DNA of 64,000 nucleotides from Micavibrio sp. (lineage in GTDB: Bacteria; Pseudomonadota; Alphaproteobacteria; Micavibrionales; Micavibrionaceae), in assembly GCA_030824805.1 (NCBI GenBank), contig JAPJRC010000004.1, forward strand, positions 10,355-74,354, read 5' to 3'. Shown here one piece after another: positions 2,753 through 63,203 of the stretch. The position numbers were made by a program, and so were the translations under genes. The notes beneath the pieces are model-generated. The model was not told the DNA's origin. It ran no database searches and worked only from the letters and a program-made list of their open reading frames with translations. Each line of letters opens with the position of its first letter. Positions within the stretch are counted from its first letter, which is position 1.

Positions 2753-3509
2753 CGCGGGCCTTTTCGATGCGGCGGACGAGGAAGATAGACAACTCATAAA
2801 GACCACAGATGGGAATGGCGAGCGCAAGCTGGCTAATCACATCGGGCGGCGTGATAACGGCGGCTACGGTAAAGATGGCAACGATCGCATAGCGGCGGAA
2901 AGAAACCAGCGCATCGCCCGAGACAATGCCGGCGCGCGCAAGCAGCGTGAGAAGGACCGGAAGCTGGAACGAGAGGCCGAATGCGAAGATAAGCATCATG
3001 ATCAGGTCGAGATATTGTTTTACGCTCGCCTCAAGCTGCACGGGCAGGACGGTTTCCGCACCCGTCGACTGGAAGCTTAAAAAGAAATGCCACGCCATGG
3101 GAATGACCATGTAATAAACCAGCGCCCCGCCGAGGAAGAACAGCACGGGCGTTGCCACCAGATAGGGCAGGAAGACCTTGCGTTCGTTTTTGTAAAGCCC
3201 CGGTGCCACGAACATCCATATTTGCGTCAGGATGATGGGGAATGTAAGGAAGCATCCGGCAAAGAACGAAATACTCAAGTAGGTGAAAAACGCTTCGGTA
3301 AGGCCGGTGTAGATAAGGCGGTTGGTAGACCCCTCGCCCATGGCATCGGCCAGCGGTTGCACCAGAAAGCCGTAGATCGGTTCTTTGAACAGGTAGCATA
3401 AGCCCGTGCCGGCCAGCATGGCGAACAGGCACCACATGACGCGCTTGCGCAACTCGGTAATGTGGGCGGTGAGCGATTCCATCGCGGTTTGCGGGGTCAT
3501 TTCATTCAT
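2736..3509 (-). CDS. tatC: twin-arginine translocase subunit TatC
   Basis: 257-aa polytopic membrane protein with TatC signature segments (FTYLSISFFAG...PGLYKNER...), directly downstream of tatA/tatB. Confidence 0.95.
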   Translation of the reverse strand: MNEMTPQTAMESLTAHITELRKRVMWCLFAMLAGTGLCYLFKEPIYGFLVQPLADAMGEGSTNRLIYTGLTEAFFTYLSISFFAGCFLTFPIILTQIWMFVAPGLYKNERKVFLPYLVATPVLFFLGGALVYYMVIPMAWHFFLSFQSTGAETVLPVQLEASVKQYLDLIMMLIFAFGLSFQLPVLLTLLARAGIVSGDALVSFRRYAIVAIFTVAAVITPPDVISQLALAIPICGLYELSIFLVRRIEKARDAKTA

Positions 3510-3808
3510 AGTTCAGGCCCCGTTTTCGGCTCGGCTTTTGCCACAGGATAATCTTCTTCGTCGGCGGATTTTTCATCGGTGGCAGGGCGCTTCTTGTTCG
3601 CTTCGAAATTCACGCCCTTGCGCAGTTCTTCGATATCGCCCGCGCGGAGAATATCGTCGAATTGCTGGCTCATCGCGAATTTCACGTATTGCAGGCGGCG
3701 GGCGAAGCGGCCGATCTGGTACATGGCTTTGGGAATATCTTTCGGCCCGATCACCATGACGGCGATCACCATGATCACCAGTAATTCGGACCAGCCGATG
3801 CCGAACAT
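3506..3808 (-). CDS. tatB: twin-arginine translocase subunit TatB
   Basis: MFGIGWSELLVIMVIAVMVIGPKDIPK... N-terminal TM plus amphipathic helix; 4-bp overlap with tatC. Confidence 0.9.
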   Translation of the reverse strand: MFGIGWSELLVIMVIAVMVIGPKDIPKAMYQIGRFARRLQYVKFAMSQQFDDILRAGDIEELRKGVNFEANKKRPATDEKSADEEDYPVAKAEPKTGPEL

Positions 3809-3811
3809 GGC

Positions 3812-3997
3812 TTACTGTTCTTTCTGCTTGTCTTCGATCTGTGCGGGCGGCGTGGAGGCATCGTCATCCGCCATGCCCTTTTTGAAGCTCTTGATGCCTT
3901 TGCCGAGATCTTCCATCAGGCCGGACACGCGGCCCTTGCCGAACAGCAGGAACACCACGACCACGACAACCAGAATGTGCCAGATGCTGATACCCAT
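3812..3997 (-). CDS. tatA: twin-arginine translocase subunit TatA
   Basis: 61 aa, [41 protein letters not shown], canonical TatA/E. Confidence 0.95.
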
Positions 3998-4000
3998 AAT

Positions 4001-4687
4001 TTATTCTTCCTCTTCGTCGTAACCGTCAAATTCGTCCTCGGCGCTTTCCACCGGCTCACCGCCGTCATCCTTGACGCCGGACAAAATTTCGGCGGCGTTG
4101 AGGTCGGCGTTGTCAAACATATCGCGCGTATCGGGCAGCGTTTCAATAGCCGGACGGCGATCCAGAAGACCAGCAGCCTTCAAATCTTCGAGACCCGGCA
4201 GCTCCATGATAGAGCCGAGGCCGAAATGGTCCAAAAACGCGTTGGTGGACAGCCATGTCAGCGGGCGGCCCGGCGTTTCGCGGCGCTTGCCGGGCTTGAT
4301 CCAACCGAGTTCGAGCAACTGGTCGATCGTGCCCTTGTTGGTGGCCACGCCGCGGATATTCTCGATTTCGGCGCGCGTGATAGGCTGGTGGTAGGCGATG
4401 ACAGCCAGTGTTTCCAGCGCGGCACGGGACAGGCGGCGCTCCACATCCTTTTCGATTGTGAGTGCGGAAGCCACATCCTGCGACGTTCTGAACGCCCATG
4501 CGCCGTTGACCTCGATCAAATTGATGCCGCGCCCGTCATATTGTTCCTGTAGTGCGGGCAGCAGAACCGCAAGGTCCGTGCCTTCGGGCAAGCGTTCATG
4601 CATCGCCTGCGGCGTCATCGGTTGCGGCGAAGCGAACAGGAGCGCTTCGACAATTTTCAATTGCTCAGTTTGTTCCGGATTCATCAT
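4001..4687 (-). CDS. scpB: segregation and condensation protein B
   Basis: ScpB winged-helix blocks (LKIVEALLFASPQPMT..., IEVNGAWAFRT, ETLAVIAYHQPITRAEIENIRGV); start set at MMNPEQTEQ, acidic C-tail. Confidence 0.9.
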   Translation of the reverse strand: MMNPEQTEQLKIVEALLFASPQPMTPQAMHERLPEGTDLAVLLPALQEQYDGRGINLIEVNGAWAFRTSQDVASALTIEKDVERRLSRAALETLAVIAYHQPITRAEIENIRGVATNKGTIDQLLELGWIKPGKRRETPGRPLTWLSTNAFLDHFGLGSIMELPGLEDLKAAGLLDRRPAIETLPDTRDMFDNADLNAAEILSGVKDDGGEPVESAEDEFDGYDEEEE

Positions 4688-5567
4688 CGTTACTTTCTTC
4701 TTCAATTTTATCTTCCGCCTTGGGTGCCTGCTCTTCAAGCGGCGGGCGGTTCGCGGTGCGCAGATAGATCGGACGGAACAAACCATCCTGACGGATTTCA
4801 AGCTTGCCCTGCTTCGCCATTTCCAGACCGGCGGTAAAGGTGGATGCCGTTGCCGAGCGCAGCATTAGCGGGTCCTTTATATTTTCGGGGAGGAAGCTCT
4901 GCAGCGTCGTCCACACCGAATGCACGCCGGATTTCGGCAGGTTGCCGAGCATGCGCGCCATGCGGTCCATCGCCTCTTCCATCGTCATGATGTTGAAGAC
5001 GGGCAGTTCGTACACGGCGGATTCCGCACGGCGGCGGATATCGCCGTAAGCCTTCAGCACATCATAAAGAGTGTCCTTGTAGGTGGCGTTGTAGGCTGTC
5101 TTCAAACCTTCGGGCGCGCCGCGCTTGAAGATGTTCACGCCGAGCTGCGGACGCGCCATCAATTTTTCCGCCGCCTGACGCATGGATTCAAGACGGCGCA
5201 ATTGGAATTGCAGCGCTTCGGCCATCGCCTCGCCCGACGGCTCACCGCTTTCGTCTTTCGCACGCGGCAGCAGCAGGCGGGATTTCAGATAGGCGAGCCA
5301 CGCCGCCATGACGAGATATTCGGCGGCGAGATCGAGACGCAGATCTTTTGCGCGCTCGATGAAATCCAGATATTGCCGTGCGAGTTGCAGGATGGAGATT
5401 TCGCGCAAGTCGACCTTTTGGTTGCGCGCCATGTCGAGGAGAACGTGGATAGGCCCTTCGTATCCGTCGAGATTGAGCAGCAGCGCATCCGCCTCATGCT
5501 CCCCTTCGGGGATGAGGGCGGTCGGATTATAATCCTGCGGCGGCTCGTCGAATGCGGCTTGCATCAA
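4665..5567 (-). CDS. scpA: segregation and condensation protein A
   Basis: ScpA/kleisin signature (LDGYEGPIHVLLDMARNQKVDLREISILQLARQYLDFIE). Confidence 0.9.
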   Translation of the reverse strand: MMQAAFDEPPQDYNPTALIPEGEHEADALLLNLDGYEGPIHVLLDMARNQKVDLREISILQLARQYLDFIERAKDLRLDLAAEYLVMAAWLAYLKSRLLLPRAKDESGEPSGEAMAEALQFQLRRLESMRQAAEKLMARPQLGVNIFKRGAPEGLKTAYNATYKDTLYDVLKAYGDIRRRAESAVYELPVFNIMTMEEAMDRMARMLGNLPKSGVHSVWTTLQSFLPENIKDPLMLRSATASTFTAGLEMAKQGKLEIRQDGLFRPIYLRTANRPPLEEQAPKAEDKIEEESNDDESGTN

Positions 5568-6489
5568 ATCTCTTCAAACTCTCTTCGCGCAAAGGCGGGC
5601 AAGCCTTTGCAATATCTTCCATTTCATTCAGGTGACCCGCGCAATATAGCGCGATATCGAGCCCCGCTTCCAGCGTTTTGACCACTCTATCCGCAGGAGA
5701 TCCATATCTTTCCAGCGCTTTCATGCAAAGGTCATCGGATACCAGTAACCCATTGAATTGCAGGTCATTCCGGATGAGATCGGTCACTTTGGAGGACACC
5801 GAGGCCGGATGTTCGGTGTCTATGGCGGTGTAGATAATGTGGGAAACCATGCCCCAGACCTTGTGCCCATAGGGTTGCTGGATCACGTAACGGAAGGGGC
5901 GAAAATCCATGGAATCGAGGTCGTCTATGTTGGCCGAGACGACCGGAAGGTCGTAGTGCGAGTCCAGCGTCGAGCGGCCCTGCCCCGGCATGTGCTTGAT
6001 CACGGGCGTAATGCCTTCGTTGATAAAGCATTCACAGGCCAGCGCGCCGAGCGCCGAAACGATTTCCGGATCGTGGCTGAAGGCGCGATCGCCAATGGCC
6101 TGATGTGTTTTCTCAAACAACACATCGAGCACCGGCGCGCAGTCGACATTAATACCGACACCGTTCAGATCATCCGATATGCCGCGCACCGTGGCGATCA
6201 GGCGGTCCTTGTCGTCAAGATCGCCGATGTCTTTCATCGACGGATATTCCGGCCAGTGCGGCGGGCGCATGCGGCGCACCCTCCCGCCTTCCTGATCGAT
6301 CAGGATGGGGCAATGCCAGCCGACGCTCTTGCGCAGATCGCTGCAGAGTTTTTTCAGTTGCGGCTGGTCGAGAATGTTGCGCGCGAACAGGATGAACCCG
6401 AACGGCTTCGCGTGTTTGAAAAAGCTTTTCTCCGCGGGTGAAAGCGTGTGGCCCAGACAGGAAAGAATGACGGCTTGGCTGTTTTGCAT
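5527..6489 (-). CDS. nagZ: beta-N-acetylhexosaminidase (GH3)
   Basis: GH3 motifs KHMPGQGRSTLDSHYDLP, GLLVSDDLCMKAL; 320 aa as in bacterial NagZ. Confidence 0.9.
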   Translation of the reverse strand: MQNSQAVILSCLGHTLSPAEKSFFKHAKPFGFILFARNILDQPQLKKLCSDLRKSVGWHCPILIDQEGGRVRRMRPPHWPEYPSMKDIGDLDDKDRLIATVRGISDDLNGVGINVDCAPVLDVLFEKTHQAIGDRAFSHDPEIVSALGALACECFINEGITPVIKHMPGQGRSTLDSHYDLPVVSANIDDLDSMDFRPFRYVIQQPYGHKVWGMVSHIIYTAIDTEHPASVSSKVTDLIRNDLQFNGLLVSDDLCMKALERYGSPADRVVKTLEAGLDIALYCAGHLNEMEDIAKACPPLREESLKRFDASRIRRAAAGL

Positions 6490-27878: not shown

Positions 27879-27954
27879 GCCCAGGTAGCTCAGTCGGTAG
27901 AGCAAGGGATTGAAAATCCCTGTGTCGGCGGTTCGATTCCGTCCCTGGGCACCA
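27879..27954 (+). tRNA. tRNA-Phe (anticodon GAA); prophage integration target
   Basis: GCCCAGGTAGCTCAGTCGGTAGAGCAAGGGATTGAAAATCCCTGTGTCGGCGGTTCGATTCCGTCCCTGGGCACCA: canonical cloverleaf, anticodon loop TTGAAAA, CCA encoded. Confidence 0.95.
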
Positions 27955-28100
27955 CAAAAATCCCGCTATTATTTAAAAACCCAATCAAATATCATTCGAA
28001 AACAATAGCTTAACTTTATCTATTGCATAAAGCCTTATGCGTGTGCTTTAAAAATGTCACACAAAATGATACACAAACTGTACCACCTTGGCATTTTAGC

Positions 28101-29417
28101 ATGAGCGATTACCTGCACAATCGCAACGGGCGCTATTATTACCGTCGACGCGTTCCTTCAGAGGTGGCTTCATACGACAATCGCGAGACGGTATGCATAT
28201 CCCTTAAAACGAATGACGTGCGAGCCGCCAAACGAAAGGCGGATATCTATAATGAACAGATCGAGGAATATTGGCGATCACTGATAGTGACGGGATCCAC
28301 TTATGAGGAGCAAAGCTACAAGCAGGCTGTAGCAATCGCGCGGGCGCATGGCTTTAATTATAAGTATGCAGCCGACATTGCAAAATCGCCAATACAAGAG
28401 ATTGTCGACCGCGTGCTCCTGGTGCAATCAAACCAGAACCCAGAAATGGTCGCAGGCATCCTTGGCGGTGTGGATCAACCCGAGCTCTTGATCAGTGAGT
28501 GCCTAGATAAATATTGGCCGCTTTGCGTGGATAGGCTTACCAAGAAATCCGATCAACAAATACACCGATGGAAGACTTTAAGAACCACTGTCATGAAGAA
28601 CTTTTTGCGCATCGTCGGTGATAAGCCGATCGCCAAAATAGACAGAAAAGATGTGATGATACTTAAGGAATATTGGGCGCAAAAAATTGCCAAGCGCGAG
28701 CGCTCGACCGACACAGCAAACAAACAGATACGGATTGCTAGAGATATCCTGCAGACTGTTGCTGACCATGCAGGCATGGAACTGGATTTTACGAAGCCTT
28801 TTGCGAAGACCAACTTCAAGCGCTCCACAAACTCACGGCCGCCTTTTGATGCAAAATATGTACAGAATGTAATTTTGGCGCCCGGGGCTCTGCCGACTTT
28901 GAATGATGATTGTAAATATCTCATCTATGCAATGGCTGATCTGGGCGCGCGACCATCCGAGCTTGTGGCGCTAACCCCCAAAGACATCTTCCTGGACGCC
29001 GACATACCATTCATTTGGATCCGGCCTTCTATCGATCGCGAATTAAAAACAGAGCATAGTGAACGTCAAATACCTTTAGTAGGCGCTGCGCTCTTTGCCT
29101 TCAAGAAAATGCCCGATGGCTTCCAACGCTATGCCACCGCCGACAGCGCATCCGCGGCAATCAACAAATACCTTACGACACGGGATTTGCTTCCAACGCC
29201 GCAGCATAGCCTGTACAGTCTTCGCCACACATTCAAAGACAGGTTACGGGATGCCGGCGCCCCGGAAGAAGTGATAGACTCATTGATGGGACACGAGACA
29301 AACCGACCGAAATACGGCCGCGGCCACAACTTGGAAACCAAGAAGAAATGGCTAGAAAAGATCGCCTACAATCCACCTGCCGGCGTTGAATCAATGTCGA
29401 CCCAGCAATTCGTTTAG
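28101..29417 (+). CDS. int: tyrosine-type site-specific integrase
   Basis: C-terminal catalytic R...HxxR...Y region (LRHTFKDRLRDAG...LMGHE) and an N-terminal arm-binding domain; start MSDYLHNRNGRYYYRRRVP. Confidence 0.9.
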   Translation: MSDYLHNRNGRYYYRRRVPSEVASYDNRETVCISLKTNDVRAAKRKADIYNEQIEEYWRSLIVTGSTYEEQSYKQAVAIARAHGFNYKYAADIAKSPIQEIVDRVLLVQSNQNPEMVAGILGGVDQPELLISECLDKYWPLCVDRLTKKSDQQIHRWKTLRTTVMKNFLRIVGDKPIAKIDRKDVMILKEYWAQKIAKRERSTDTANKQIRIARDILQTVADHAGMELDFTKPFAKTNFKRSTNSRPPFDAKYVQNVILAPGALPTLNDDCKYLIYAMADLGARPSELVALTPKDIFLDADIPFIWIRPSIDRELKTEHSERQIPLVGAALFAFKKMPDGFQRYATADSASAAINKYLTTRDLLPTPQHSLYSLRHTFKDRLRDAGAPEEVIDSLMGHETNRPKYGRGHNLETKKKWLEKIAYNPPAGVESMSTQQFV

Positions 29418-30041: not shown

Positions 30042-30692
30042 CTAATAAGAATCGCGCAAAGGCTCGACGTCCTTTACGCCCGTAGAATTCATAGAGGGAT
30101 TCATCGCAGTGATCTCGAACATCGACGCCGGCAGTGTTGGGATTGTCTCAACAGTCGAGCGTCCGGGATCCAGCCAGTCATCCACGTAGTCTGTAATTAT
30201 CGGAACACGGTGATGGTATTGTCGAACAACCCCCTCTGATTCAGTGGTGACGATCGAAAAAGAAACAAGCCACTCATTCTCGATCTGCGTGTGATTGTAA
30301 ATACCTGCCAGGTTGATTAGACTGCCGTCTTTTCGCGAGAATTTGTAAGGCATCTTACGCTTCCGCTCCCCCTCTTCGCGCCACTCGTAGAAAGCTTCGC
30401 AAGGAATTATGCACCGGCGCTTTGCGTAGGGAGTCTTGAAGCTCGACTTTTCAGTGATAGTTTCTGCCCGCGCATTGTGTAAAGTTGGAAGCTTTTCGAG
30501 GTTGCGCACCCACGATGGCACGAGCCCGAAGCGCGCCAAATGCCAGTGCGCGCCGTTTTCGTCGTTGCAAAGGATGGGCGTTATGCCTGTAGGCGGCAGA
30601 TTGGGATCATACTCGAAATTGAAAGCGGGCGAAGAGGCAAAACACTCCAATAGGCGGTTTGCGTTTCTTGGCGATTGAAATCGTGCACACAT
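30042..30692 (-). CDS. SOS-response-associated peptidase (SRAP/YedK family, abasic-site processing)
   Basis: Begins MCARF (catalytic Cys2 of SRAP), blocks PSWVRN...HNARAETI...KRRCIIPCEAFYEW...FSIVTT; start set at MCARF. Confidence 0.85.
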   Translation of the reverse strand: MCARFQSPRNANRLLECFASSPAFNFEYDPNLPPTGITPILCNDENGAHWHLARFGLVPSWVRNLEKLPTLHNARAETITEKSSFKTPYAKRRCIIPCEAFYEWREEGERKRKMPYKFSRKDGSLINLAGIYNHTQIENEWLVSFSIVTTESEGVVRQYHHRVPIITDYVDDWLDPGRSTVETIPTLPASMFEITAMNPSMNSTGVKDVEPLRDSY

Positions 30693-31097
30693 GAACCTCA
30701 ATATGGTGTTTCAATCGATAAAAAGCGAGAGGGATAGCGCCCTTTGGCAGGCGTGCCCTCACTTTTTTGACTGATTAAGGTTTGGCAAACCGGAAAGTTC
30801 CAGACATGCGAAGCTCCTCCTATTGTATGATAAATTACCTCCGTCCCGGACATGCGGGATCTACTGGTTACCAGCGTAGTCAGTAAAGCGAGAGAAGTTC
30901 ATGGTTTAAAGCGTTGGCGCGCTTTAACTAGAATTGGGAAAGCAGATGGTTAATTTCTGATATGCAATTAGTGGAATAAATCTTAAGGATTTGACGATCA
31001 CTTTTCAAGCGGCAGCACTACCATTTTATTGAAAATTAAAAAAATTTCCTATAGGATGATACATTAGACATCCTGAAAGTATAACGGCCAGCCCACC

Positions 31098-34151: not shown

Positions 34152-35429
34152 TTACAGCCTCCCGGTATATTTGAATTTCAGAGTGTGGATGTCGCATCCT
34201 TTTAATGATGCGCATTTGTTTCGGTGGACCTTTTCGTTATCGACAGAGATCAACCCGCGGCTTATTGCATCCTGTATTTCGGACCAGCCGCCGAGCTGCT
34301 GATACTCGACCAATCTTTTGATACGATCATCCATAGGATCCAGAAGCACCGGTATAAGATCGGGTTCGTTATGCAAAAATGGATGGGGGATAATATCCAT
34401 ATCCGCATTTTTGATATCATTCGTTATCTCTTGCGCCTCTGCCTGCACACTGGCGCCATCCATGTATTCTTCCAAAGTTCTACGCTTGGCAACCATGCGA
34501 TATTTTTTGCCGGTTACTTTGCATTTATGCGTGCAACGAATATCGGTTGGCCCGTTATAGGCCCAGGGCGGCACTTCAGCCAGATACGTGCCTACGACAT
34601 CTCCGGAAGAATTCAACAAGGCGTAGAAAAAGCCACCAACCTCTCCCTCACCAATGTCATAGGGCGGCGATGAAGTGACATAGCGTTGACTGTAACTCAC
34701 GTTCCTGTTTGAAGATGATCCACCTTTCGACACTTGGGGATAGAACCCAAACTCACCGCCCGGAAGAGAAGTATAGCCAGTGCCGCTGACCGTCGATCCG
34801 TTTTGTCGTCTTACGCCTAGGCGGCCGGCCGTACCGCTAAAGCTGCTGGGTCCACCGGAGAAGACGGTCACGTCGATAAAACCGTCACTATCAATAAAAA
34901 ATCCGAACGAACCGGTACCGAGGCTCGTGTTCAAATCCCCCTGAGAAACGGTAATAATGCCGGTGCTTTCGTTCGTTCCCGCCAATTGCAAGAAAGTACC
35001 GTCATAAATTGCGGTATAAAAGCCATCTTGAATAATGTCATTGGCGGCCAAAGCAGCCAATCCGCTTTCGGTTTTCTTCCGAAATGGGATGGGCGACAAA
35101 GGATCGATCCCGTCGATGACCGCATCCACCGGCCCGCCGTTGGATGACAGGGCTATAAATTTGAACTCCATGCCGTCGCCGAGTTCCGACAAACCGAGCG
35201 GCGTGGTCAAGGTTAAATGGTCGGAAGTGCCTGCAACAGCGCATTTGATGAATTCATTGCTTTGCACATCGCGCGCATTGGGAACGATAATTCCACCTGG
35301 CGTAACACTATCACCCACATGGATGCGCTTCTTGGTGATGTTGTAGCCAAATTCTGCCAACGCAATCACGGCAGAGCCTATTACCGAATCCACGCCTCTA
35401 CGATGTTGTACCTGCTCGGTTATCGCCAT
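34152..35429 (-). CDS. phage tail fibre protein
   Basis: 425-aa Gly/Ser/Thr-rich protein directly downstream of the J-like protein. Confidence 0.6.
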   Translation of the reverse strand: MAITEQVQHRRGVDSVIGSAVIALAEFGYNITKKRIHVGDSVTPGGIIVPNARDVQSNEFIKCAVAGTSDHLTLTTPLGLSELGDGMEFKFIALSSNGGPVDAVIDGIDPLSPIPFRKKTESGLAALAANDIIQDGFYTAIYDGTFLQLAGTNESTGIITVSQGDLNTSLGTGSFGFFIDSDGFIDVTVFSGGPSSFSGTAGRLGVRRQNGSTVSGTGYTSLPGGEFGFYPQVSKGGSSSNRNVSYSQRYVTSSPPYDIGEGEVGGFFYALLNSSGDVVGTYLAEVPPWAYNGPTDIRCTHKCKVTGKKYRMVAKRRTLEEYMDGASVQAEAQEITNDIKNADMDIIPHPFLHNEPDLIPVLLDPMDDRIKRLVEYQQLGGWSEIQDAISRGLISVDNEKVHRNKCASLKGCDIHTLKFKYTGRL

Positions 35430-55582: not shown

Positions 55583-57004
55583 TTACGGTTGGTTATGATT
55601 TTCGTCGTAGAAATATTGACGCACCCCATCAAAGCGACATCGTACGGATGCAATCTCGCCTTGGCGGAATTTGCCAATAATAATTTCAGCTGCGCCCTCT
55701 TCCGCATGAACAAGCTCTGTCCATGCCTGATATCGGTCGTTGAATTTGTCCTGACTTTCGCTGGCGCGACGGTGTGGCTCTTCCTTTTTAAGGTAGTACT
55801 CCGGCCGGTATGGGAACATGATCAAGTCAGCGTCTTGTTCTATGGCGCCGGAATCGCGCAGGTCGGCGAGCGAGGGTCGCTTATCTTCACGGTTCTCAAC
55901 GCTGCGGCTAAGCTGGCACAACAATGCAACGTGAACATTCAGCTCTTTTGCCATTGCCTTCAGACGTTGCGTAATCTCTTCGAGCTGATGCACTTTGTTG
56001 GCGTTGTTGTTTGTGGGCCTGATAAGCCCAAGATAATCGACAACAACCATATCCAATCCGCCATATCGTCGTTTCATTCGCTTGGCACGGGAAGCAATTT
56101 GCCCTGCTGTAAGCGACCCAGTTTCATCTAGCAAGACAGGCAATTTTTTTAGCTCTTGTTGTGCCTGACGCAACGCCACCATATGCTCAGGGGACAGCGC
56201 CTTGGTCCTGCGCATCATGCCCATGGGAAGGCCCGTTTTACGCGCGAGAAAACGAAGGCCAAGTTGTGCATTCTGCATCTCCAGCGATTGGAACAGCACC
56301 CTATGCCCCGCACGCGCTGCATTGACGGAAATGCTCAAAGCCAGAGCGGTCTTGCCCATCGATGGGCGCGCCGCAATGATGCTCAGCTCTCCGCGTTCAA
56401 ATCCGCAAATTTTTTCGTCGAGCGCTGCTATGCCGGAAGCAATGCCGGTGACTTCCCCGCGTTGCGCACGATCGATCATATCCATTGTTTGTTCAAGCCC
56501 GTCCCCAAGCTCAACGGCTTCCTTTTCCGCCGCGCCGCGATCTGAAAGCGCATAGATCAATGTCTCCGCCTCGGACACGATGTCCCGTGTTGGTCGATCA
56601 ATTTCGTAATTCTGCGCTTGATCGATCATAGCGAAAGCGGTGGTGATAATATTTCTGCGCGTATAATAATCGACAAGCTGTCGTGCATAATCACGGGCGG
56701 AATTGAGACGCGGCACGTATGTCGCCAGATCCACGATATATTTTCCGCCGCCCACGGAATCCAGCGCACCGTCTGCCTCGAAATACTTTCGCACCGTCAT
56801 GGCTGCCGCGTCACCTGTGGCGGCATAGCTTTTGACGATCACATCATAAATCTTACCATGTGTTGGATGGGAGAAGTGCTCTGCGCGCACATGTTCTGCT
56901 ACAGCTTCGATCTGCCGGTTATCGAGCATCATCATGCCCAGCAAGCCATGCTCACAGTCCAAATTATGCGGCAAATGTTCGCTATCAATTCTTGTCATTA
57001 CCAC
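55583..57004 (-). CDS. dnaB: replicative DNA helicase, DnaB family
   Basis: N-terminal DnaB domain (LPHNLDCEHGLLGMMM), RecA core with Walker A (ARPSMGKTALAL), Walker B LVVVDYLGLI. Confidence 0.95.
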   Translation of the reverse strand: MVMTRIDSEHLPHNLDCEHGLLGMMMLDNRQIEAVAEHVRAEHFSHPTHGKIYDVIVKSYAATGDAAAMTVRKYFEADGALDSVGGGKYIVDLATYVPRLNSARDYARQLVDYYTRRNIITTAFAMIDQAQNYEIDRPTRDIVSEAETLIYALSDRGAAEKEAVELGDGLEQTMDMIDRAQRGEVTGIASGIAALDEKICGFERGELSIIAARPSMGKTALALSISVNAARAGHRVLFQSLEMQNAQLGLRFLARKTGLPMGMMRRTKALSPEHMVALRQAQQELKKLPVLLDETGSLTAGQIASRAKRMKRRYGGLDMVVVDYLGLIRPTNNNANKVHQLEEITQRLKAMAKELNVHVALLCQLSRSVENREDKRPSLADLRDSGAIEQDADLIMFPYRPEYYLKKEEPHRRASESQDKFNDRYQAWTELVHAEEGAAEIIIGKFRQGEIASVRCRFDGVRQYFYDENHNQP

Positions 57005-57441
57005 ATTTTCCCATTCGGCATGACATGCGTTTGCTTAACTTTGACGATCTTGCGGCTGACGACAGGAACATGCTCGGCGCAGTATGTTTTCCCACGCTCT
57101 GTACGCTCACCACAGAAACCAAAACCCGGCTCGCCGGGGGAACCAAATGAGTAACGACACATGCATGGTCCAAGGTCCAGCAATGATGTCAATGCTTCGG
57201 GACGAAATGGGGGTTTCAGCGGTATCTTTCTCCTTTTCTGGCAAGTCTTTCCATTACTGCCGGGCTTGTTGCCGCGCGCGCGCGGTTCAGTCACCGTTTT
57301 TAGTTTTAGACGATGCACCTTCCCCATTATCGCGCTGCGCGTTTTTCCCATCAGTTGGACAATCTCGGGCGACGTTTTCCCAGCGCTCCATAGCGCTTTC
57401 AATGTTTCTATTTCTTCATCAGTCCAAGAGTTGCTCTTCAT
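56998..57441 (-). CDS. gcrA: GcrA cell-cycle regulator family protein (phage-encoded)
   Basis: N-terminal WTDEEIETLKALWSAGKTSPEIVQLMGKTRSAIMGKVHRLKL and C-terminal Cys-containing GcrA domain (CQ..PL....FCG....YC.EH). Confidence 0.8.
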   Translation of the reverse strand: MKSNSWTDEEIETLKALWSAGKTSPEIVQLMGKTRSAIMGKVHRLKLKTVTEPRARGNKPGSNGKTCQKRRKIPLKPPFRPEALTSLLDLGPCMCRYSFGSPGEPGFGFCGERTERGKTYCAEHVPVVSRKIVKVKQTHVMPNGKMW

Positions 57442-59419: not shown

Positions 59420-59617
59420 ATGTCCATAGAAGCTTTGGTAGTTATCATCGTTGCGCTTGTTATTTACGTTTTGCCCTCATTGATCGCAGACAACAGAAAA
59501 CACTATAATTTCAAGGCCATACTTGCGGTGAATATCCTTACGGGATGGACCGGTTTCGGATGGATTGCGGCCCTGGTCTGGGCATTGACAAACAACGTCC
59601 GCCCAAGGCTCGCCTAA
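59420..59617 (+). CDS. superinfection immunity protein (Imm family small membrane protein)
   Basis: 65 aa, two TMs, the GW...GWIAALVWAL signature shared with T4 Imm-like proteins. Confidence 0.7.
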   Translation: MSIEALVVIIVALVIYVLPSLIADNRKHYNFKAILAVNILTGWTGFGWIAALVWALTNNVRPRLA

Positions 59618-59626
59618 CCCTCCCTT

Positions 59627-59965
59627 CTATCCTGTAGCCGTGCTCCAGTAACGCTCACAACGGCGATCTAGATTTTCATGATATTGACGATCAAGATTCC
59701 AAGCCTCCCCAGTGACGGCGCGGTAAATCTCCCAAAGCCCTTTCAGCGTTGTTTGATGTCCCGCAAGTTCCAAATTCAGGTAATGGCGCTGCATCAGAAA
59801 CCGAGCCTGTGCCAACTCTGCTTTGGTTTTCCTGTATTCGAGCAACTGACTGCGCACGCGCGTCCGCCACAACGCGACCTGGTCATGCAACATTTTAACG
59901 TCAAAAATCTGCGGCTCGACAATTTGGCGGCTTTGTAGGCCAAAAATACTCTGTATCTTACTCAT
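59627..59965 (-). CDS. hypothetical protein (moron)
   Basis: Start MSKIQSIFGLQ; no motif recognised. Confidence 0.5.
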   Translation of the reverse strand: MSKIQSIFGLQSRQIVEPQIFDVKMLHDQVALWRTRVRSQLLEYRKTKAELAQARFLMQRHYLNLELAGHQTTLKGLWEIYRAVTGEAWNLDRQYHENLDRRCERYWSTATG

Positions 59966-60076
59966 TTTACTCCCCACTAATCGTAAATAGTTAACTTCAC
60001 ACGGGAGGATTTTTATAGACAAAACCTTAAAGATTGATTAAGAACTGTACTGTATCACCCCAAAGGATACAAAATC

Positions 60077-60724
60077 ATGGTTATGCCGAGTCAATTTCGA
60101 GCCGCTAGAGGGCTCCTCAATCTTAAGCAACAAGACGTTGCTGAAGGTATCGGCGCGGCCAAAATGACCGTATCCGATCTTGAAAACGAGAAGTCTCAGC
60201 CAAAAGCACATACCGTTGATATGATGCGCCGCTTCTATGAGAGCCGGGGTGTGGAGTTCACGATCGATGGCGGCGTTCGCCCCTCTTCCAATTCTATCCA
60301 GATATTCGACGGTCCGGACTGTTACTTCCAGTTTATCAACGAGGCGCATTCCTATCTCGCGGCGCGTAAGGGTGAAATCCTGTTCAGCGGTGCCGACGAC
60401 CGTCGCTCTCCACCCGAGATCATCGAGAAGTTCCGCACCATGAAAGACGATGGCATTCGCATGCGCTCGCTGATCCGTCCGAATGATGACTATATCTTGG
60501 GCGGGCCGGAAGAATATCGCTGGATGCCGGCAGACCTGTTTGTCGAAGGCGATGTGAAGGCGATCTTTGAAGACCGCGTGGCATGGCTGGTCAGCTGGCT
60601 GAACAACCCCCGCGTTATTATGATCAAAGACCCGATCATCGCGCAGGAAGCCACCCGTACGTTTAACTTCATTTGGAGCCAGTCGGAAGGCCCGACGGAA
60701 TCCAGCGCGCCGGAGAGATATTGA
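60077..60724 (+). CDS. XRE-family HTH fused to an unknown ~140-aa C-terminal domain
   Basis: N-terminus has the alphaproteobacterial short-HTH pattern (FRAARGLLNLKQQDVAEGIGAAKMTVSDLENEKSQP...RGVEF); the C-terminal domain is unrecognised. Confidence 0.7.
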   Translation: MVMPSQFRAARGLLNLKQQDVAEGIGAAKMTVSDLENEKSQPKAHTVDMMRRFYESRGVEFTIDGGVRPSSNSIQIFDGPDCYFQFINEAHSYLAARKGEILFSGADDRRSPPEIIEKFRTMKDDGIRMRSLIRPNDDYILGGPEEYRWMPADLFVEGDVKAIFEDRVAWLVSWLNNPRVIMIKDPIIAQEATRTFNFIWSQSEGPTESSAPERY

Positions 60725-61416
60725 TGGCTATCGTTTCGGTAAAATCCCGCGGCGGATGGACGGAAGGCGGTAAGTTCTCGCTCGGCGTATCCATGGGTAG
60801 CGAGAACCACGATGGAGAAGCCCTGCAGGCCGTCGTAGACTGGATTAACGCTTCCTCTTTCGAAAGCGGAATTATAGACCTGTCTGACACGCTGTGCCGG
60901 TTTGGCTTCATGCTGGAAGGCCTTTACGAGGAGAGCGCGTATCTTGCATCGGTAAAGCTGGGCGATGAATGGCTGCGCCGTAATTCATCCATTCTTTCTT
61001 CTCTGGAAAAGCCCTGTCAGGTCATTCGGTGGGACACATGGCGCCGCCATGAAGATTTTGAAAGCGTGTCGGCCGAAGTTGAAGCCGCCTATAAAAAAAG
61101 CACGGCGTTGCGCCACGCTGTTTATGCCGACATCTCAGCCTATTACACCCGTAAGGATATTGCGCTCTCACCAGAGAAGGTCGGGCTCAGCACGCGGTAT
61201 TTTTTGGAAGAGCTCACCGCCCACACCCTCCTACACCGTATACATGATGTTGCGGCCATTTATCCCGGCAAGCAGCTTGAGTGCTATAAAATGGTGAGGC
61301 AGAAGAAGGTGGAATTTCCGGAAGGGATACCAGGTTCGGCGTTCGTGCGCCTTGTGCCGCATAGCTTTGCCAACACCCCCCAATTTTTACCACTTGTCGC
61401 CTCTAGCCAAGGCTAA
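60724..61416 (+). CDS. cyclodipeptide synthase-like protein (tRNA-dependent CDPS fold) - tentative
   Basis: TGATG coupling to the upstream gene; LGVSMGSENH resembles the CDPS catalytic GISxGNSxF block; ALQAVVDWINASSFESGIIDLSD aligns with AlbC LLQWAGQRFERTDVVYVD; RYFLEE (Y..E) and LECY fit the Y178/E182/Y202 positions. Confidence 0.45.
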   Translation: MAIVSVKSRGGWTEGGKFSLGVSMGSENHDGEALQAVVDWINASSFESGIIDLSDTLCRFGFMLEGLYEESAYLASVKLGDEWLRRNSSILSSLEKPCQVIRWDTWRRHEDFESVSAEVEAAYKKSTALRHAVYADISAYYTRKDIALSPEKVGLSTRYFLEELTAHTLLHRIHDVAAIYPGKQLECYKMVRQKKVEFPEGIPGSAFVRLVPHSFANTPQFLPLVASSQG

Positions 61417-61421
61417 ATATT

Positions 61422-62690
61422 TCAGCATCTCACCACCGGCAGTTCCTTAATATTCGTCGTAAAACATGGGCTCTTGCGGTCGAATTTGGTCCGCCATGTT
61501 GGCCTTACCCCCGCCGCCAGTGGTGCGATGCTCCCCCGCCCATACCGGTGGTTTATCCGGTCCATGGCCTGCATAAGATCGTCTGCCTTCTCCCGGTTGC
61601 CATATCCGTCCAGAAGTGCCGGTTGGTACTGGCTGATCGGTGAAAGATCCATCGTCATGATCCCACCTTTCATGTACCGCCTGCCCCGCTCCCAGCAATG
61701 TTGAACGACAGACTTGGCCGCGCCGACAATACGAATGGTATCGTTCGTGGTTTCAGGGAAATTGACCGTCATGGCGCTGTATTTGTAATCGGGCTCGTGC
61801 GGCGAGGTATGGAAGAACACCACCACGCTGTTGGCGCCCAGATTATCCTTCCGAAGCTTTTCCCCCATCCGTACGGCGTAAAAAGCCATAGCCTCTTCCA
61901 GACCGTCTTTCGTCGTGATGCGCTCGCCGAACATCCGGGAAACGGTGCAGCCCTTCCGGATCGGCGGAACGTCTTCCAGCGAGAGGCAGGACAATCCCCG
62001 CAGCTCGTATACGAGACGCTCCCCCACGACGGTCATCAGCTTGCGGGCCGATGTGGTCGGGAAGCTGATCAGGTCGTCGACATATTCAATCCCGAGCTTG
62101 TTCAGCTTGGCCGTCGACGCGAGCCCTATTCCCCACACTTCGGACACCGGAACAACCTCCGTCACCTCTTTGAATGTTTTCGGGTTTGTCAGGTCGCACA
62201 CGCCTTTGAATTCGGGCACATGCTTTGCCGTCCAGTTGGCAAGCTTTGCCAGCGTCTTTGTCGGGCCAATACCCACGCAGGTCGGAATGCCTGTCCATTG
62301 TTTTACTGTGTCCTTAAGCTCGGTTCCGAACTTGACCAGGTCGAGCCCCTTGAAGGCCGTAAGATCGAGAAAGCTTTCATCGATCGAGTAGGTTTCGATA
62401 TCGGGACAGAATTGCCGGTAGATCTCGTTCATCCGTGCGGACATATCGCCATAGAGCGTATAATTCGATGAGAACACCGCCACGTTGTTTCGCTTGCACA
62501 GGTCGCGGATTTTAAAGAACGGATCACCCATTTTTATACCGACGGCCTTTGCCTCCGCGGTTCGGGCCACGGCGCAGCCATCATTGTTCGACAGGACGAT
62601 AACGGGCCTCTTCTCCAGCTTTGGATCGAACACGCGCTCGCAGGAGCAGTAAAAGGAATTGCCATCGATCAGCGCGAAGACCCTGCTCAT
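61422..62690 (-). CDS. umuC: Y-family DNA polymerase V catalytic subunit
   Basis: [23 protein letters not shown]..., ImpB/MucB/UmuC family. Confidence 0.9.
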
Positions 62691-63130
62691 CGTTGCACCA
62701 GCATATGGATGTTGCAGCGGACCACGCCCCATATCTCGATATCAGATTCATCCGATGTGTTGAACTCGGGAAACTCCCTGTTATCGAAGGCAAGATGCGG
62801 GCGGCCCTTGATGTATTTGAGGCGCTTAAGGGATCTCTCCCCGTTTACCACCGCGATGACGATATCGCCGTTCTGAGGCTTGAGGCTTCGATCGATGACT
62901 AGGATATCGCCGCTGTATATCCCCGCATCTTTCATGGAATGGCCGATCACCCGCCAGAGAAACGTGGCCGGCTTGTTCCGGATCAGCTCGGTTTCAAGAT
63001 TGATGGGCTCGTCCAGATAATCACCCGCGGGGGATGGAAATCCGGCGCAGATGCTTTCCTGCACCATAGGCAGGACAAGGCCGCTGGAATTGCTTGGCCT
63101 GTTTTTCGTTGTCGGGATAAATGAGAACAT
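62687..63130 (-). CDS. umuD: UmuD-like LexA-family S24 peptidase
   Basis: Cleavage-site region [12 protein letters not shown], Ser/Lys dyad (GHSMKDAG...KRLK); start ambiguous (63067, 63130 or 63157); ATGA overlap with umuC. Confidence 0.85.
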
Positions 63131-63139
63131 AAAGGGAAC
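63125..63139. promoter_or_regulatory. candidate alphaproteobacterial LexA (SOS) box GAAC-N7-GAAC
   Basis: GAACATAAAGGGAAC at the umuD 5-prime end (equivalent to GTTC-N7-GTTC on the coding strand). Confidence 0.5.
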
Positions 63140-63203
63140 GGAAACATAGGAGAACACCCTGAGTCAAATTAATTTCAAAACTGAAAAATCGATTATTTAA
63201 ATA

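What the first reader, a model, noticed from the sequence alone, without database searches (positions are those of the whole stretch)
60077..61416. Prophage moron operon: XRE-HTH fusion protein coupled to a cyclodipeptide-synthase-like protein
Two co-directional genes with a TGATG stop/start overlap sit between the immunity region and umuDC, the classic slot for defence or lysogenic-conversion cargo. The first is an alphaproteobacterial-type XRE HTH fused to an unrecognised ~140-aa domain. The second (230 aa) shows the catalytic-serine block and the Y..E / CY positions of tRNA-dependent cyclodipeptide synthases (class-I aaRS-like fold). A CDPS-like enzyme encoded by a prophage and coupled to a DNA-binding fusion protein is not a described system. 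It could be a small-molecule signalling or defence module or a toxin/regulator pair.
Basis: partly seen in the sequence, partly recalled or inferred. Interest (0 to 1): 0.85.

Follow-up and report, generated by a model that had tools for sequence, protein, structure and literature searches.

The report
Mobile cyclodipeptide synthase cassette with dedicated regulator
A prophage of an alphaproteobacterium carries a real tRNA-dependent cyclodipeptide synthase that is always paired, across phages, plasmids and chromosomes, with an undescribed DNA-binding protein whose sensor-like domain could be the first dedicated receptor for these small cyclic peptides.

Summary
ORF1 (60077-60724) and ORF2 (60724-61416) overlap by TGATG and sit in a tRNA-Phe-integrated prophage, between the repressor/superinfection-immunity genes and umuDC.

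ORF2 is a genuine XYP-subfamily cyclodipeptide synthase (CDPS). Its family profile matches solved CDPSs at E 6e-31. The AF2 model (pLDDT 90) matches them at TM 0.77-0.80. The catalytic Ser, the Y...E pair and the Tyr-Pro signature are conserved.

New findings:
- The pair is adjacent in all 19 distinct loci examined (prophage-like, plasmid/ICE, island and chromosomal contexts, all in Alphaproteobacteria). It is also adjacent in a distant regulator clade.
- The two proteins co-diverge (r = 0.95).
- A third gene, a small divergent helical protein, belongs to the cassette.
- So does a conserved promoter/operator element, TATAGACAA-N4-TTAA-N7-TTAA.

The most likely reading is a self-regulated cyclodipeptide synthesis-and-sensing cassette carried as mobile cargo. 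Toxin-antitoxin and defence readings remain open.

The enzyme kind is known. The conserved regulator partnership and mobile-element carriage appear undescribed in the searchable literature.

The parts
59627..59965 (-). Small helical protein, 112 aa from the ATG at 59965 (GGGGAG ribosome-binding site 5 nt upstream). It is transcribed divergently from ORF1 and carries the conserved [FM]-[DE]-V-K-x-L motif. It is the third conserved gene of the cassette.
   Evidence: In each locus, a leave-one-out HMM built from the other loci picks this ORF as the top hit among all six-frame segments (E 1e-4 to 1e-8, next best above 0.3). It was also found in L016, L020, L022, L023, L025 and L027. It matches no Pfam or PHROGs family. 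The Lys of DVK is invariant. About half of the homologues end in -AA.
60010..60044 (.). Conserved divergent promoter/operator element, TTTTTATAGACAAAACCTTAAAGATTGATTAAGAA. It contains a -35-like TAGACA (60016-60021), a 17-nt spacer and a -10-like TAAGAA (60039-60044). The palindrome CTTAA-N7-TTAAG (60026-60042) lies in the spacer. On the minus strand, TGTCTATAAAAA reads as a -10-like element for the small gene.
   Evidence: Sixteen loci align with invariant T/A columns in both TTAA half-sites. TATAGACAA-N4-TTAA occurs once per locus, 60-70 nt upstream of the XRE start codon. The palindrome is unique in the 64-kb window. Promoter and operator function is inferred. The generic sigma-70 scanner did not call a promoter here.
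60077..60274 (+). ORF1 N-terminal XRE-type helix-turn-helix DNA-binding domain (aa 1-66).
60284..60724 (+). ORF1 C-terminal PLD/Nuc-fold domain without the HKD catalytic motif (aa ~70-215). It is a putative sensor and dimerisation domain. The end coordinate includes the stop codon.
60724..61416 (+). ORF2, a cyclodipeptide synthase of the XYP subfamily (230 aa). It is translationally coupled to ORF1 through the TGATG overlap and has a GGAGAG ribosome-binding site 7 nt upstream.
   Evidence: Sequence evidence: TIGR04539 E 2.6e-11; 5MLQ E 1e-18; profile matches to 5OCD at 6e-31 and 5MLQ at 4e-30. Structure evidence: AF2 pLDDT 90.5; Foldseek TM 0.77-0.80 to XYP CDPSs, followed by NYH CDPSs and then TyrRS. 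S23, E163, Y180 and P181 are conserved in 40-41 of 41 clade members.

Best explanation
The locus is a self-contained, mobile three-gene cassette.

Shown:
- ORF2 is an intact XYP-type cyclodipeptide synthase. Enzymes of this family take two aminoacyl-tRNAs and release one 2,5-diketopiperazine, using a catalytic serine that is first acylated.
- The specificity-pocket residues are invariant across the clade, so all members should make the same product. The Gly two residues before the catalytic Ser suggests a roomy first pocket.
- ORF1 is an XRE-type DNA-binding protein fused to a catalytically dead phospholipase-D-fold domain.
- ORF1 is always encoded immediately upstream of the synthase, translationally coupled to it, and co-diverging with it.

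Inferred:
- ORF1 binds as a dimer to the conserved TTAA-N7-TTAA element inside the back-to-back promoters. From there it controls its own operon (ORF1 plus the CDPS) and the divergent small gene.
- Its PLD-fold domain acts as a ligand sensor, as in TrmB regulators. The ligand is most probably the cyclodipeptide made by its partner.
- That would give a feedback or autoinduction (quorum-like) circuit whose output is the small helical protein, which is probably unstable.

In this window the cassette is lysogeny-side cargo (a moron) of a tRNA-Phe-integrated prophage. The same cassette travels on plasmids/ICEs, resolvase islands and chromosomes of Alphaproteobacteria.
For: CDPS identity. The aligned Ser is the one mutated to Ala in the substrate-trapped structure 9IAM.

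Regulator anatomy.

Obligate pairing:
- XRE-to-CDPS adjacency, at 0-50 nt or overlapping, holds in 19 of 19 distinct loci.
- It also holds in a regulator clade only ~34% identical.
- No CDPS of this clade was seen without the regulator.
- Pairwise identities of the two proteins correlate at r = 0.95 over 136 locus pairs.

Sensor-like domain:
- The C-terminal domain is more conserved than the HTH and than the enzyme (56% vs 45% vs 42%).
- Some of its conserved residues are family-wide and others are clade-specific.

Operator: a conserved promoter element with two TTAA half-sites 11 bp apart lies between the divergent genes.

Third gene.

Receptor-without-synthase states fit signalling systems. 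These are an orphan second regulator copy beside a diverged pair (L007) and a broken CDPS with an intact regulator (L009).

Mobile contexts:
- Prophage.
- Phage-like: L001 and L005.
- Plasmid/ICE: L011 and L020.
- Resolvase islands: L003 and L010.
Against: - No ligand, DNA-binding or enzyme activity was or could be measured here.
- The fold of the sensor domain resembles nucleases slightly better than it resembles TrmB. No sequence family links it to any ligand-binding domain.
- The generic promoter scanner did not call the proposed promoter.
- Co-divergence and adjacency prove co-inheritance, not ligand-receptor matching.
- The layout (HTH gene first, overlapping an enzyme gene, autoregulatory palindrome, carriage on mobile elements, orphan HTH copies) equally fits a type II toxin-antitoxin design.
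- The C-terminal domain could bind the CDPS protein or the small protein rather than a small molecule.
- All homologues come from metagenomes or MAGs, so no cultured host is available.
Confidence: 0.45

Rival explanations
1. A plain minimal biosynthetic gene cluster. ORF1 is only a pathway-specific repressor or activator that responds to some other cue, or to none. The cyclodipeptide acts outward, as an antimicrobial or allelopathic compound, a metal-binding molecule or an interspecies signal that benefits the lysogen or plasmid host. Product sensing plays no part.
For: - CDPS genes with a dedicated adjacent regulator are known, for example the MarR-type PchR with yvmC-cypX (PMC4992311).
- CDPS clusters on mobile elements are known, for example bicyclomycin (PMC5930311).
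- No tailoring, export or receptor gene other than ORF1 is conserved.
- The operator is unique in the window, which marks ORF1 as a purely local regulator.
Against: - The regulator's non-DNA-binding domain is the most conserved part of the whole cassette.
- The regulator has stayed fused and paired with CDPSs over deep divergence. That is more than a generic repressor would need.
- The conserved divergent small gene suggests an intracellular output.
Confidence: 0.25
2. A toxin-antitoxin or abortive-infection module. The CDPS is a growth-arresting enzyme that drains or sequesters particular aminoacyl-tRNAs. ORF1 is the DNA-binding antitoxin, neutralising the CDPS through its PLD-fold domain and autorepressing the operon. 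The small protein, probably unstable, modulates the switch. The module stabilises mobile elements or aborts phage infection.
For: - The architecture is typical of type II TA systems: the HTH-XRE gene comes first and overlaps the enzyme gene.
- A palindrome sits in the promoter, and the cassette is carried on a prophage, plasmids and islands beside MazE-PIN, Fic, ArdC and R-M genes.
- The HTH resembles HipB, MqsA and HigA antitoxins at the domain level.
- An orphan HTH copy (L007) and a decayed enzyme with an intact HTH (L009) exist, but the reverse was never seen.
- Many small-protein homologues carry a C-terminal -AA tail, which suggests ClpXP-dependent lability.
Against: - PADLOC has no model matching the CDPS, and only generic HTH matches for ORF1.
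- The putative antitoxin is more conserved than the putative toxin (51% vs 42%), which is the opposite of the usual TA pattern.
- Well over a hundred CDPSs have been expressed in E. coli for product analysis. That work is in Gondry 2018 (PMC5816076). I recall no reports of toxicity, but this is my own knowledge and was not checked here.
- All catalytic and pocket residues are conserved, as expected for a product-forming enzyme.
- Several copies lie in ordinary chromosomal neighbourhoods.
Confidence: 0.15
3. A phage-specific lysis-lysogeny or superinfection device. The cyclodipeptide reports lysogen density to the prophage, and the small protein acts on the phage repressor.
For: In the window, and in L005 and L006, the cassette sits directly beside the repressor and superinfection-immunity genes. 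Phage-borne small-molecule and peptide communication systems provide a precedent (own knowledge: arbitrium, VqmA-Phi).
Against: - Most copies are not in phages.
- No relatives were found in 50,697 deposited phage genomes or in IMG/VR.
- The operator motif occurs only once in the window, so no other prophage promoter is an evident target.
Confidence: 0.07

Closest known systems
XYP-subfamily cyclodipeptide synthases: Nbra-CDPS (PDB 5MLQ/9IAM), Fdum-CDPS (5OCD), Rgry-CDPS (5MLP)
   Same: - ORF2 is homologous in sequence (profile E 6e-31 to 2e-13) and in fold (TM 0.73-0.80).
- It has the catalytic Ser, the Tyr...Glu pair and the Tyr-Pro signature.
- Size is similar (~230 aa).
- The host phylum is mainly proteobacterial, as Gondry 2018 reports for XYP enzymes.
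   Different: - Identity is only 22-29%.
- ORF2 falls just under the curated NCBIfam cutoff and well under the Pfam cutoff.
- The residue two positions before the catalytic Ser is Gly, against Leu in the cyclo(Ala-Glu) enzyme. The product is therefore probably different and cannot be predicted here.
- ORF2 is carried on mobile elements and always paired with the XRE-PLD-fold protein. The CDPS literature I could search does not report this.
TrmB / TrmBL2 transcription regulators (PDB 2F5T, 3QPH, 5BPD)
   Different: - ORF1 has an XRE-type HTH, not a winged-helix TrmB domain.
- There is no sequence match to any TrmB Pfam model.
- ORF1 lacks TrmB's second, C-terminal subdomain.
- Its ligand is unknown.
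PLD-superfamily nucleases Nuc / NucT / Zucchini (PDB 1BYS, 6EHI, 4GEL)
Type II toxin-antitoxin operons with XRE antitoxins (HipBA, HigBA, MqsRA)
   Same: The gene order and overlap, an autoregulatory palindrome, carriage on plasmids and prophages, and the occurrence of orphan HTH copies all match.
   Different: - The second gene is a biosynthetic enzyme with no known toxicity.
- The HTH protein is large and folded, and it is more conserved than its partner.
- A third, divergent gene is conserved.
Signal synthase-receptor pairs on mobile elements (LuxI/LuxR-type TraI/TraR, Rap-Phr, arbitrium AimR-AimP-AimX); a functional analogy only, from my own knowledge
   Same: A small-molecule or peptide producer is encoded next to a cytoplasmic HTH receptor, with a small adjacent output gene. 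The modules are mobile and co-diverging. Orphan receptors occur (L007).
   Different: There is no homology to any of these. The chemistry is different (tRNA-derived diketopiperazine). Ligand binding is unproven.
PchR (YvmB)-YvmC-CypX of Bacillus subtilis (PMC4992311)
   Same: A CDPS operon controlled by a dedicated adjacent transcription factor.
   Different: The regulator is MarR-type, the CDPS belongs to the NYH subfamily, and a P450 tailoring enzyme is present. The locus is chromosomal rather than mobile.

Membership tests
Cyclodipeptide synthase (Pfam PF16715 / NCBIfam TIGR04539) | Significant sequence similarity to family members or models | tested here: met
   phmmer against solved CDPSs gives E 1.2e-18. 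The family profile gives E 5.9e-31 to 5OCD and hits 18 CDPS chains at E ≤ 1, and nothing else. The single-sequence curated cutoffs are narrowly or clearly missed: TIGR04539 43.5 vs 45 bits, PF16715 15 vs 27 bits. Several homologues do carry a precomputed PF16715 hit.
Cyclodipeptide synthase | Rossmann-type fold related to class-Ic aminoacyl-tRNA synthetases | tested here: met
   The AF2 model has pLDDT 90.5. The top 44 Foldseek PDB hits are all CDPSs (TM 0.60-0.81), followed by TyrRS variants.
Cyclodipeptide synthase | Catalytic serine (AlbC Ser37) that carries the aminoacyl-enzyme intermediate | tested here: met
   S23 is present in 40 of 40 clade members with that region. It aligns with the Ser of Nbra-CDPS that is replaced by Ala in the substrate-trapped entry 9IAM.
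Cyclodipeptide synthase | Catalytic Tyr178 / Glu182 equivalents (Y-x-x-x-E) | tested here: met
   The window has Y159 and E163. Across the clade, Glu is present in 41 of 41 members and Tyr in 35 of 41 (Phe in the other 6). These residues align with YLLEE of 5MLQ and 5OCD.
Cyclodipeptide synthase, XYP subfamily | X40 / Tyr202 / Pro203 signature (instead of Asn / Tyr / His in the NYH subfamily) | tested here: met
   The window has S26, Y180 and P181. Tyr-Pro is present in 41 of 41 members. Matches to XYP structures are far stronger than to NYH structures.
Cyclodipeptide synthase | Formation of a cyclodipeptide from two aminoacyl-tRNAs | not testable with these tools
   This needs expression followed by LC-MS.
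Phospholipase D / Nuc superfamily (ORF1 C-terminal domain) | PLD fold | tested here: met
Phospholipase D / Nuc superfamily (ORF1 C-terminal domain) | HxK(x)4D(x)6GSxN catalytic motif | tested here: not met
   No invariant His or Lys appears among 28 close homologues or 38 distant ones. M129-R130-S131...G143-P144-x-E146 occupies the motif positions. This mapping rests on spacing and predicted secondary structure, so it is an inference. No Pfam PLDc hit was found at E ≤ 10.
TrmB family regulators | TrmB winged-helix N-terminal domain and TrmB C-terminal effector domain, by sequence | tested here: not met
Type II toxin-antitoxin system | A toxin of a recognised toxin family, or demonstrated toxicity neutralised by the upstream HTH protein | tested here: inconclusive
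   The second gene matches only CDPS models, and no toxin family is hit. Toxicity and neutralisation cannot be tested here. The gene order, the overlap and the palindrome are TA-like.
Known anti-phage defence systems (PADLOC-DB v2) | Match of the components to a defence-system model | tested here: not met
   ORF2 matches no family. ORF1 matches only generic HTH or controller models through its first ~65 residues.
Signal synthase / cytoplasmic receptor pair (quorum-sensing-like) | Synthase and receptor genetically linked and co-diverging; receptor binds the synthase product | tested here: inconclusive
   Linkage (19 of 19 loci, plus the distant clade) and co-divergence (r = 0.95) are met. Ligand binding cannot be tested here.
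Prophage moron (lysogeny-side cargo) | Lies inside the prophage, is not needed for the phage life cycle, and has its own promoter | tested here: met
   - The left end is tRNA-Phe plus an integrase.
- No attR repeat occurs within the window, so the prophage runs past 64000.
- The cassette sits between the sie gene and umuDC.
- It has its own conserved promoter element.
- The same cassette occurs outside phages.

The most novel reading that the evidence does not exclude
The cassette is a new kind of cell-cell (or element-to-element) communication system that spreads on phages, plasmids and islands of Alphaproteobacteria. A tRNA-dependent synthase makes a specific diketopiperazine signal. The XRE / pseudo-PLD protein is its dedicated cytoplasmic receptor. 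The small divergent protein, probably unstable, is the output. This would provide the first genetically defined receptor for CDPS-made cyclodipeptides. It would also assign a role to the several-hundred-cluster family of HTH-PLD-fold proteins and to the many 'stand-alone' proteobacterial XYP CDPSs.
Probability: 0.25. Interest if true: 0.88.

Novelty: new variant of a known kind. Interest (0 to 1): 0.66.

Why it matters
Cyclodipeptide synthases have been studied mainly as biocatalysts and as parts of antibiotic clusters. What the many proteobacterial XYP enzymes do for their hosts is essentially unknown. Whether diketopiperazines are true bacterial signals has also been argued for a long time without a dedicated receptor in hand.

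This locus offers a concrete, testable candidate. A transcription factor with a sensor-like domain is welded genetically to the synthase across deep divergence. It has an identifiable operator and an output gene. The whole unit is small enough (1.8 kb) to move into a test strain.

The carriage on a prophage, plasmids and islands also means that the cassette is selected as mobile cargo. That makes it relevant to lysogenic conversion, mobile-element competition and possibly defence.

Separately, the work gives a fold and a genomic partner to an uncharacterised protein family of at least 671 sequence clusters.

Tried and rejected
- **Defence-system assignment.** PADLOC gave nothing for the CDPS and only generic HTH hits for ORF1.
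- **Phage-family assignment.** PHROGs gave nothing for the CDPS, the C-terminal domain or the small protein.
- **Relatives in deposited phages (INPHARED) and IMG/VR.** None were found for either protein.
- **Relatives on PLSDB plasmids.** Only HTH-level hits turned up, plus one distant CDPS (27% identity) in a different context.
- **First genome-contig scan, with the CDPS alignment.** The patterns found no confirmed locus. The regulator alignment did work.
- **Sequence-level link from the C-terminal domain to any solved structure or Pfam family.** None was found. Only the fold search was informative.
- **Active-nuclease reading of ORF1.** Rejected because the HKD residues are absent.
Rejected in favour of Y180-P181.
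- **SOS control of the cassette.** No GTTC-N7-GTTC box lies near it. The only exact box is in front of umuD.
- **Generic sigma-70 promoter and terminator scan.** It made no call at the conserved element, and found no terminator between the CDPS and the convergent umuC.
- **Broad regulator-family alignments (A5, A6).** They were too diverse for the locus scanner. A four-member subclade worked.
- **Product prediction from the published P1/P2 motifs.** The consensus motifs are only in figures, so just one position could be compared.
Full report
**1. The observation**

The two ORFs are present as described. ORF1 is 60077-60724 (215 aa). ORF2 starts at the ATG at 60724, which shares its A with the TGA stop of ORF1, and ends at 61416 (230 aa). 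Alignments with homologues start at this ATG, not at the upstream TTG at 60673. Each gene has a Shine-Dalgarno-like sequence: AAAGGA before ORF1 and GGAGAG before ORF2 (read directly).

**2. Context**

The window holds a siphovirus-type prophage.
- Structural genes: a gpA-type large terminase, a lambda-family portal, an S49 protease, major capsid protein E, a tail tube, a tape measure and a tail protein, all on the minus strand between 31 and 52 kb.
- Replication and immunity: DnaB, a GcrA-like gene and a divergent pair of HTH genes at 58.5-59.4 kb. A superinfection-immunity gene lies at 59420-59617 (PF14373, E 2e-18).
- Left end: tRNA-Phe at 27879-27954, followed by an integrase at 28023-29417.
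- Right end: no repeat of the tRNA 3' end of 12 nt or more occurs in the rest of the window. attR therefore lies beyond 64000, and the cassette and umuDC are internal.

The label 'prophage cargo next to the immunity region' is justified.

**3. ORF2 is a real cyclodipeptide synthase**

Sequence evidence:
- The curated models are weak for the single sequence. TIGR04539 gives E 2.6e-11 and 43.5 bits against a cutoff of 45. PF16715 gives 15 bits against 27.
- Direct comparison with solved structures is unambiguous: E 1.2e-18 to Nbra-CDPS (5MLQ/9I5M) and 9e-16 to Fdum-CDPS (5OCD).
- A profile of 13 homologues reaches 5.9e-31 (5OCD), 4e-30 (5MLQ) and 1.8e-13 (5MLP). These are all XYP-subfamily enzymes. 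NYH enzymes score only 1e-5 to 5e-3.

Structure evidence:
- The AlphaFold model has pLDDT 90.5.
- Its first 44 Foldseek hits in the PDB are all CDPSs (TM 0.60-0.81), followed by TyrRS. That is the expected class-Ic relationship.

Catalytic residues:
- S23 aligns with the Ser that is mutated to Ala in the substrate-trapped entry 9IAM.
- Across 41 clade members the Ser is present in 40 of 40, the Glu of Y-x-x-x-E in 41 of 41, and Tyr-Pro in 41 of 41. The first Tyr is Y in 35 and F in 6.
C187 varies, and the conserved Tyr is Y180.

Specificity pockets:
- The pocket positions after Tyr-Pro (G182, Q184, L185) and the residue two positions before the Ser (G21) are nearly invariant. The clade should therefore make a single product.
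- Gondry et al. report that this second P1 position is Leu in cyclo(Ala-Glu) enzymes, Ala in cyclo(Leu-Glu) enzymes and Phe in the cyclo(Gly-Glu) enzyme CDPS 87 (PMC5816076). Gly suggests a larger first substrate. This is an inference, and the product is not predicted.

**4. ORF1**

- The remaining residues match no Pfam, PHROGs or PDB sequence.
- It also resembles the effector-binding regions of TrmBL2 (11.5) and TrmB (11.0-11.2).
- No His or Lys is invariant in 28 close or 38 distant homologues. M129-R130-S131 and G143-P144-x-E146 stand where the HxK...GSxN residues would be. The domain is therefore a pseudo-enzyme.
- It is the best-conserved part of the cassette: 56% mean pairwise identity, against 45% for the HTH and 42% for the CDPS. 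Invariant polar and aromatic residues include E100, R110, S131, Y147, R148, W149 and D159.

**5. The pair is an obligate unit, and it is mobile**

I fetched contigs through both proteins and examined 19 distinct loci. Every one has the regulator gene immediately followed by a CDPS gene, overlapping or up to 50 nt apart.

The contexts are varied:
- This prophage, and an identical fragment from another sample (L006).
- A locus beside a CI-type repressor and pRha (L005).
- A phage-like element with DUF3987 and DUF2800 genes (L001).
- Mobilisable plasmids or ICEs with MobA, TraG, ArdC, MazE-PIN and RPA (L011-13), or with a relaxase, ArdC, Fic and type I R-M genes (L020).
- Resolvase/ParB islands (L003, L010).
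- Ordinary chromosomal neighbourhoods on contigs of 94 kb to 1.3 Mb (L007, L014, L016, L018).

Named hosts are Micavibrio, Rhodobacteraceae and other alphaproteobacterial MAGs.

Pairwise identities of the two proteins correlate at r = 0.95 over 136 locus pairs.

Two loci show a regulator without a working synthase:
- L007 has a diverged pair (35% and 33% identity) followed by a second, orphan regulator that is 65% identical to the window protein.
- L009 has an intact regulator and a CDPS broken across three frames.

The reverse arrangement was never seen.

**6. The coupling extends far beyond this clade**

An exhaustive HMMER search with the C-terminal domain found 671 clusters at 50% identity (284 at E ≤ 1e-10). 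Almost all are 200-230 aa with the domain at about residues 70-215. Ten distant members sampled all carry HTH_3 at the N-terminus.

For one distant subclade (~34% identity) I could fetch three contigs long enough to read the neighbouring genes. In all three the regulator is again overlapped at its 3' end by a CDPS (E 1e-33 to 1e-41 against the clade profile, with SVGKPYHEG, EELAVF and [YC]PG motifs).

**7. Two further conserved parts**

(a) *A small divergently transcribed protein.* In the window it is 59627-59965, 112 aa. An HMM built from the other loci picks it as the top six-frame segment in each locus (E 1e-4 to 1e-8, next best above 0.3). It is also detected in six further loci. Shorter copies in the L014, L018 and L029 clade fall below the HMM threshold but share the motif by eye. 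The motif is [FM]-[DE]-V-K-x-L followed by helix-like sequence, and the Lys is invariant. About half of the homologues end in -AA (GRAA, KRAA, GKAA, MAA, QAA), which resembles a ClpXP degron. The window copy ends in TATG.

(b) *A conserved DNA element.* It lies 60-70 nt upstream of the regulator's start codon and reads TTTTTATAGACAA-N4-nTTAA-N7-TTAAn. In the window the TAGACA / 17 nt / TAAGAA arrangement reads as a promoter. The perfect palindrome CTTAA-N7-TTAAG (60026-60042) lies in its spacer and is unique in the 64 kb. Two half-sites one helical turn apart inside a promoter are what a dimeric HTH repressor would use. This is inference. The generic promoter scanner did not call it.

Accessory genes vary between loci:
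- A second small protein in L001, L007, L016 and L020.
- An extra HTH_31 protein in L003, L010 and L011.
- Two 101-aa proteins plus a ferritin in L014 and L018.

**8. Mechanism**

Shown:
- An intact XYP CDPS.
- An HTH / pseudo-PLD protein obligately linked to it and co-diverging with it.
- A conserved operator-like element.
- A conserved divergent small gene.
- Carriage on mobile elements.

Inferred:
- The regulator binds the TTAA-N7-TTAA site and controls both promoters.
- Its PLD-fold domain is a sensor.
- The sensed ligand is the partner's cyclodipeptide.

My estimates are as follows:
- About 0.9 that this is a regulated CDPS cassette.
- About 0.45 that product sensing (feedback or autoinduction) is part of it.
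- About 0.25 for a plain regulator with an outward-acting product.
- About 0.15 for a toxin-antitoxin or abortive-infection design.
- About 0.07 for a phage-specific lysis-lysogeny role.

Against the TA reading: the HTH protein is more conserved than the enzyme, the enzyme keeps all product-forming residues, and CDPSs are routinely over-expressed in E. coli. The last point is from my own knowledge of the work summarised in PMC5816076.

For the TA reading: the gene order, the overlap, the palindrome, the mobile-element neighbours and the pattern of decay.

**9. Comparison with what is known**

The enzyme is a new member of a known family. JGI already labels some homologues 'tRNA-dependent cyclodipeptide synthase'. 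BFVD holds two viral CDPS-fold proteins, one from an uncultured Caudovirales phage and one from a megavirus. A phage-borne CDPS is therefore rare but not unprecedented in databases.

Full-text searches found the following:
- No paper links CDPSs to prophages as cargo, to anti-phage defence or to XRE/HTH partners.
- The known regulator case is the MarR-type PchR in Bacillus (PMC4992311).
- The known mobile case is the bicyclomycin cluster (PMC5930311).
- Skinnider et al. noted PAS domains near CDPSs and speculated about quorum sensing (PMC5767969).

The HTH-PLD-fold family itself has no Pfam model. Its conserved partnership with CDPSs, the operator and the third gene appear to be undescribed.

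**10. Verdict**

It is a new variant of a known kind, with a credible path to something more novel: a diketopiperazine signal-receptor system on mobile elements. Interest is 0.66.

Noticed in passing
window 63125-63139 (minus strand): The only exact alphaproteobacterial-type SOS box (GTTC-N7-GTTC, here GTTCCCTTTATGTTC) in the window lies at the 5' end of umuD. The prophage umuDC operon is therefore probably LexA-controlled. The GTG start at 63157 listed for umuD is probably too far upstream.
   Followed up: partly
window 30042-30701 (minus strand) and 61422-63157: The prophage carries an SRAP (YedK-like abasic-site crosslinking peptidase, E 4e-46) next to its integrase, and umuDC at the other side. 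These are two DNA-damage-tolerance cargo genes on one phage.
   Followed up: no
window 56998-57441 (minus strand): A GcrA cell-cycle-regulator homologue (E 4e-24) is encoded in the prophage replication module, directly downstream of DnaB.
   Followed up: no
window 34152-35429 (minus strand): A tail-region protein gives a weak hit, below the Pfam cutoff, to the N-terminal domain of the major tropism determinant Mtd (E 1.3e-4). This hints at a diversity-generating retroelement target. No reverse transcriptase or template repeat was looked for.
   Followed up: no
L007 8627-10654 (= L021, Micavibrio MAG, 399-kb contig): A diverged regulator-CDPS pair (35% and 33% identity to the window proteins) is followed by a second, orphan regulator that is 65% identical to window ORF1 and has no synthase of its own.
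   Followed up: partly
L009 10001-11454 (alphaproteobacterial MAG): The regulator is intact, but the adjacent CDPS is split over three reading frames. It is either a pseudogene or an assembly error.
   Followed up: no
L014 8727-9834 and L018 8747-9817: In two chromosomal loci the cassette is followed by two conserved 101-aa proteins of unknown function (63% and 58% identical between the loci) and a ferritin/Dps-like gene. This may be an extended operon in that subclade.
   Followed up: partly
L001 6823-7017, L007 8049-8276, L016 6527-6742, L020 6762-6980: A second family of small proteins (64-75 aa, E 1e-6 to 1e-18 between loci) follows the divergent small gene in four loci. In L003, L010 and L011 a 132-150-aa HTH_31 protein (mutually E 1e-18) occupies that position instead.
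   Followed up: partly
Small divergent proteins of L001, L003, L014, L016, L018, L020, L022, L023: Their C-termini end in -AA (GRAA, KMAA, KRAA, LQAA, GKAA, GRAA, RMAA), like SsrA-type ClpXP degrons. The window copy ends in TATG.
   Followed up: partly
L036 (MK748464.1, Candidatus Endohaliclona renieramycinifaciens plasmid) 3366-6006: A distant CDPS (27% identity), annotated as hypothetical, is followed directly by a putative sensor histidine kinase. This is another CDPS apparently wired to a signalling protein, in a sponge-symbiont plasmid.
   Followed up: no
BFVD entries A0A6J5L519 and A0A167R1P4: CDPS-fold proteins exist in an uncultured Caudovirales phage (366 aa, labelled cyclodileucine synthase) and in Powai lake megavirus. 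Neither is close to ORF2 (14-16% identity).
   Followed up: no
L031 2417-3106 and L032 2969-3430 (minus strand): In the distant clade, additional HTH proteins with the same N-terminal QIRAAR...GxxF signature lie upstream of the regulator-CDPS pair. They are paralogous regulators of unknown role.
   Followed up: no
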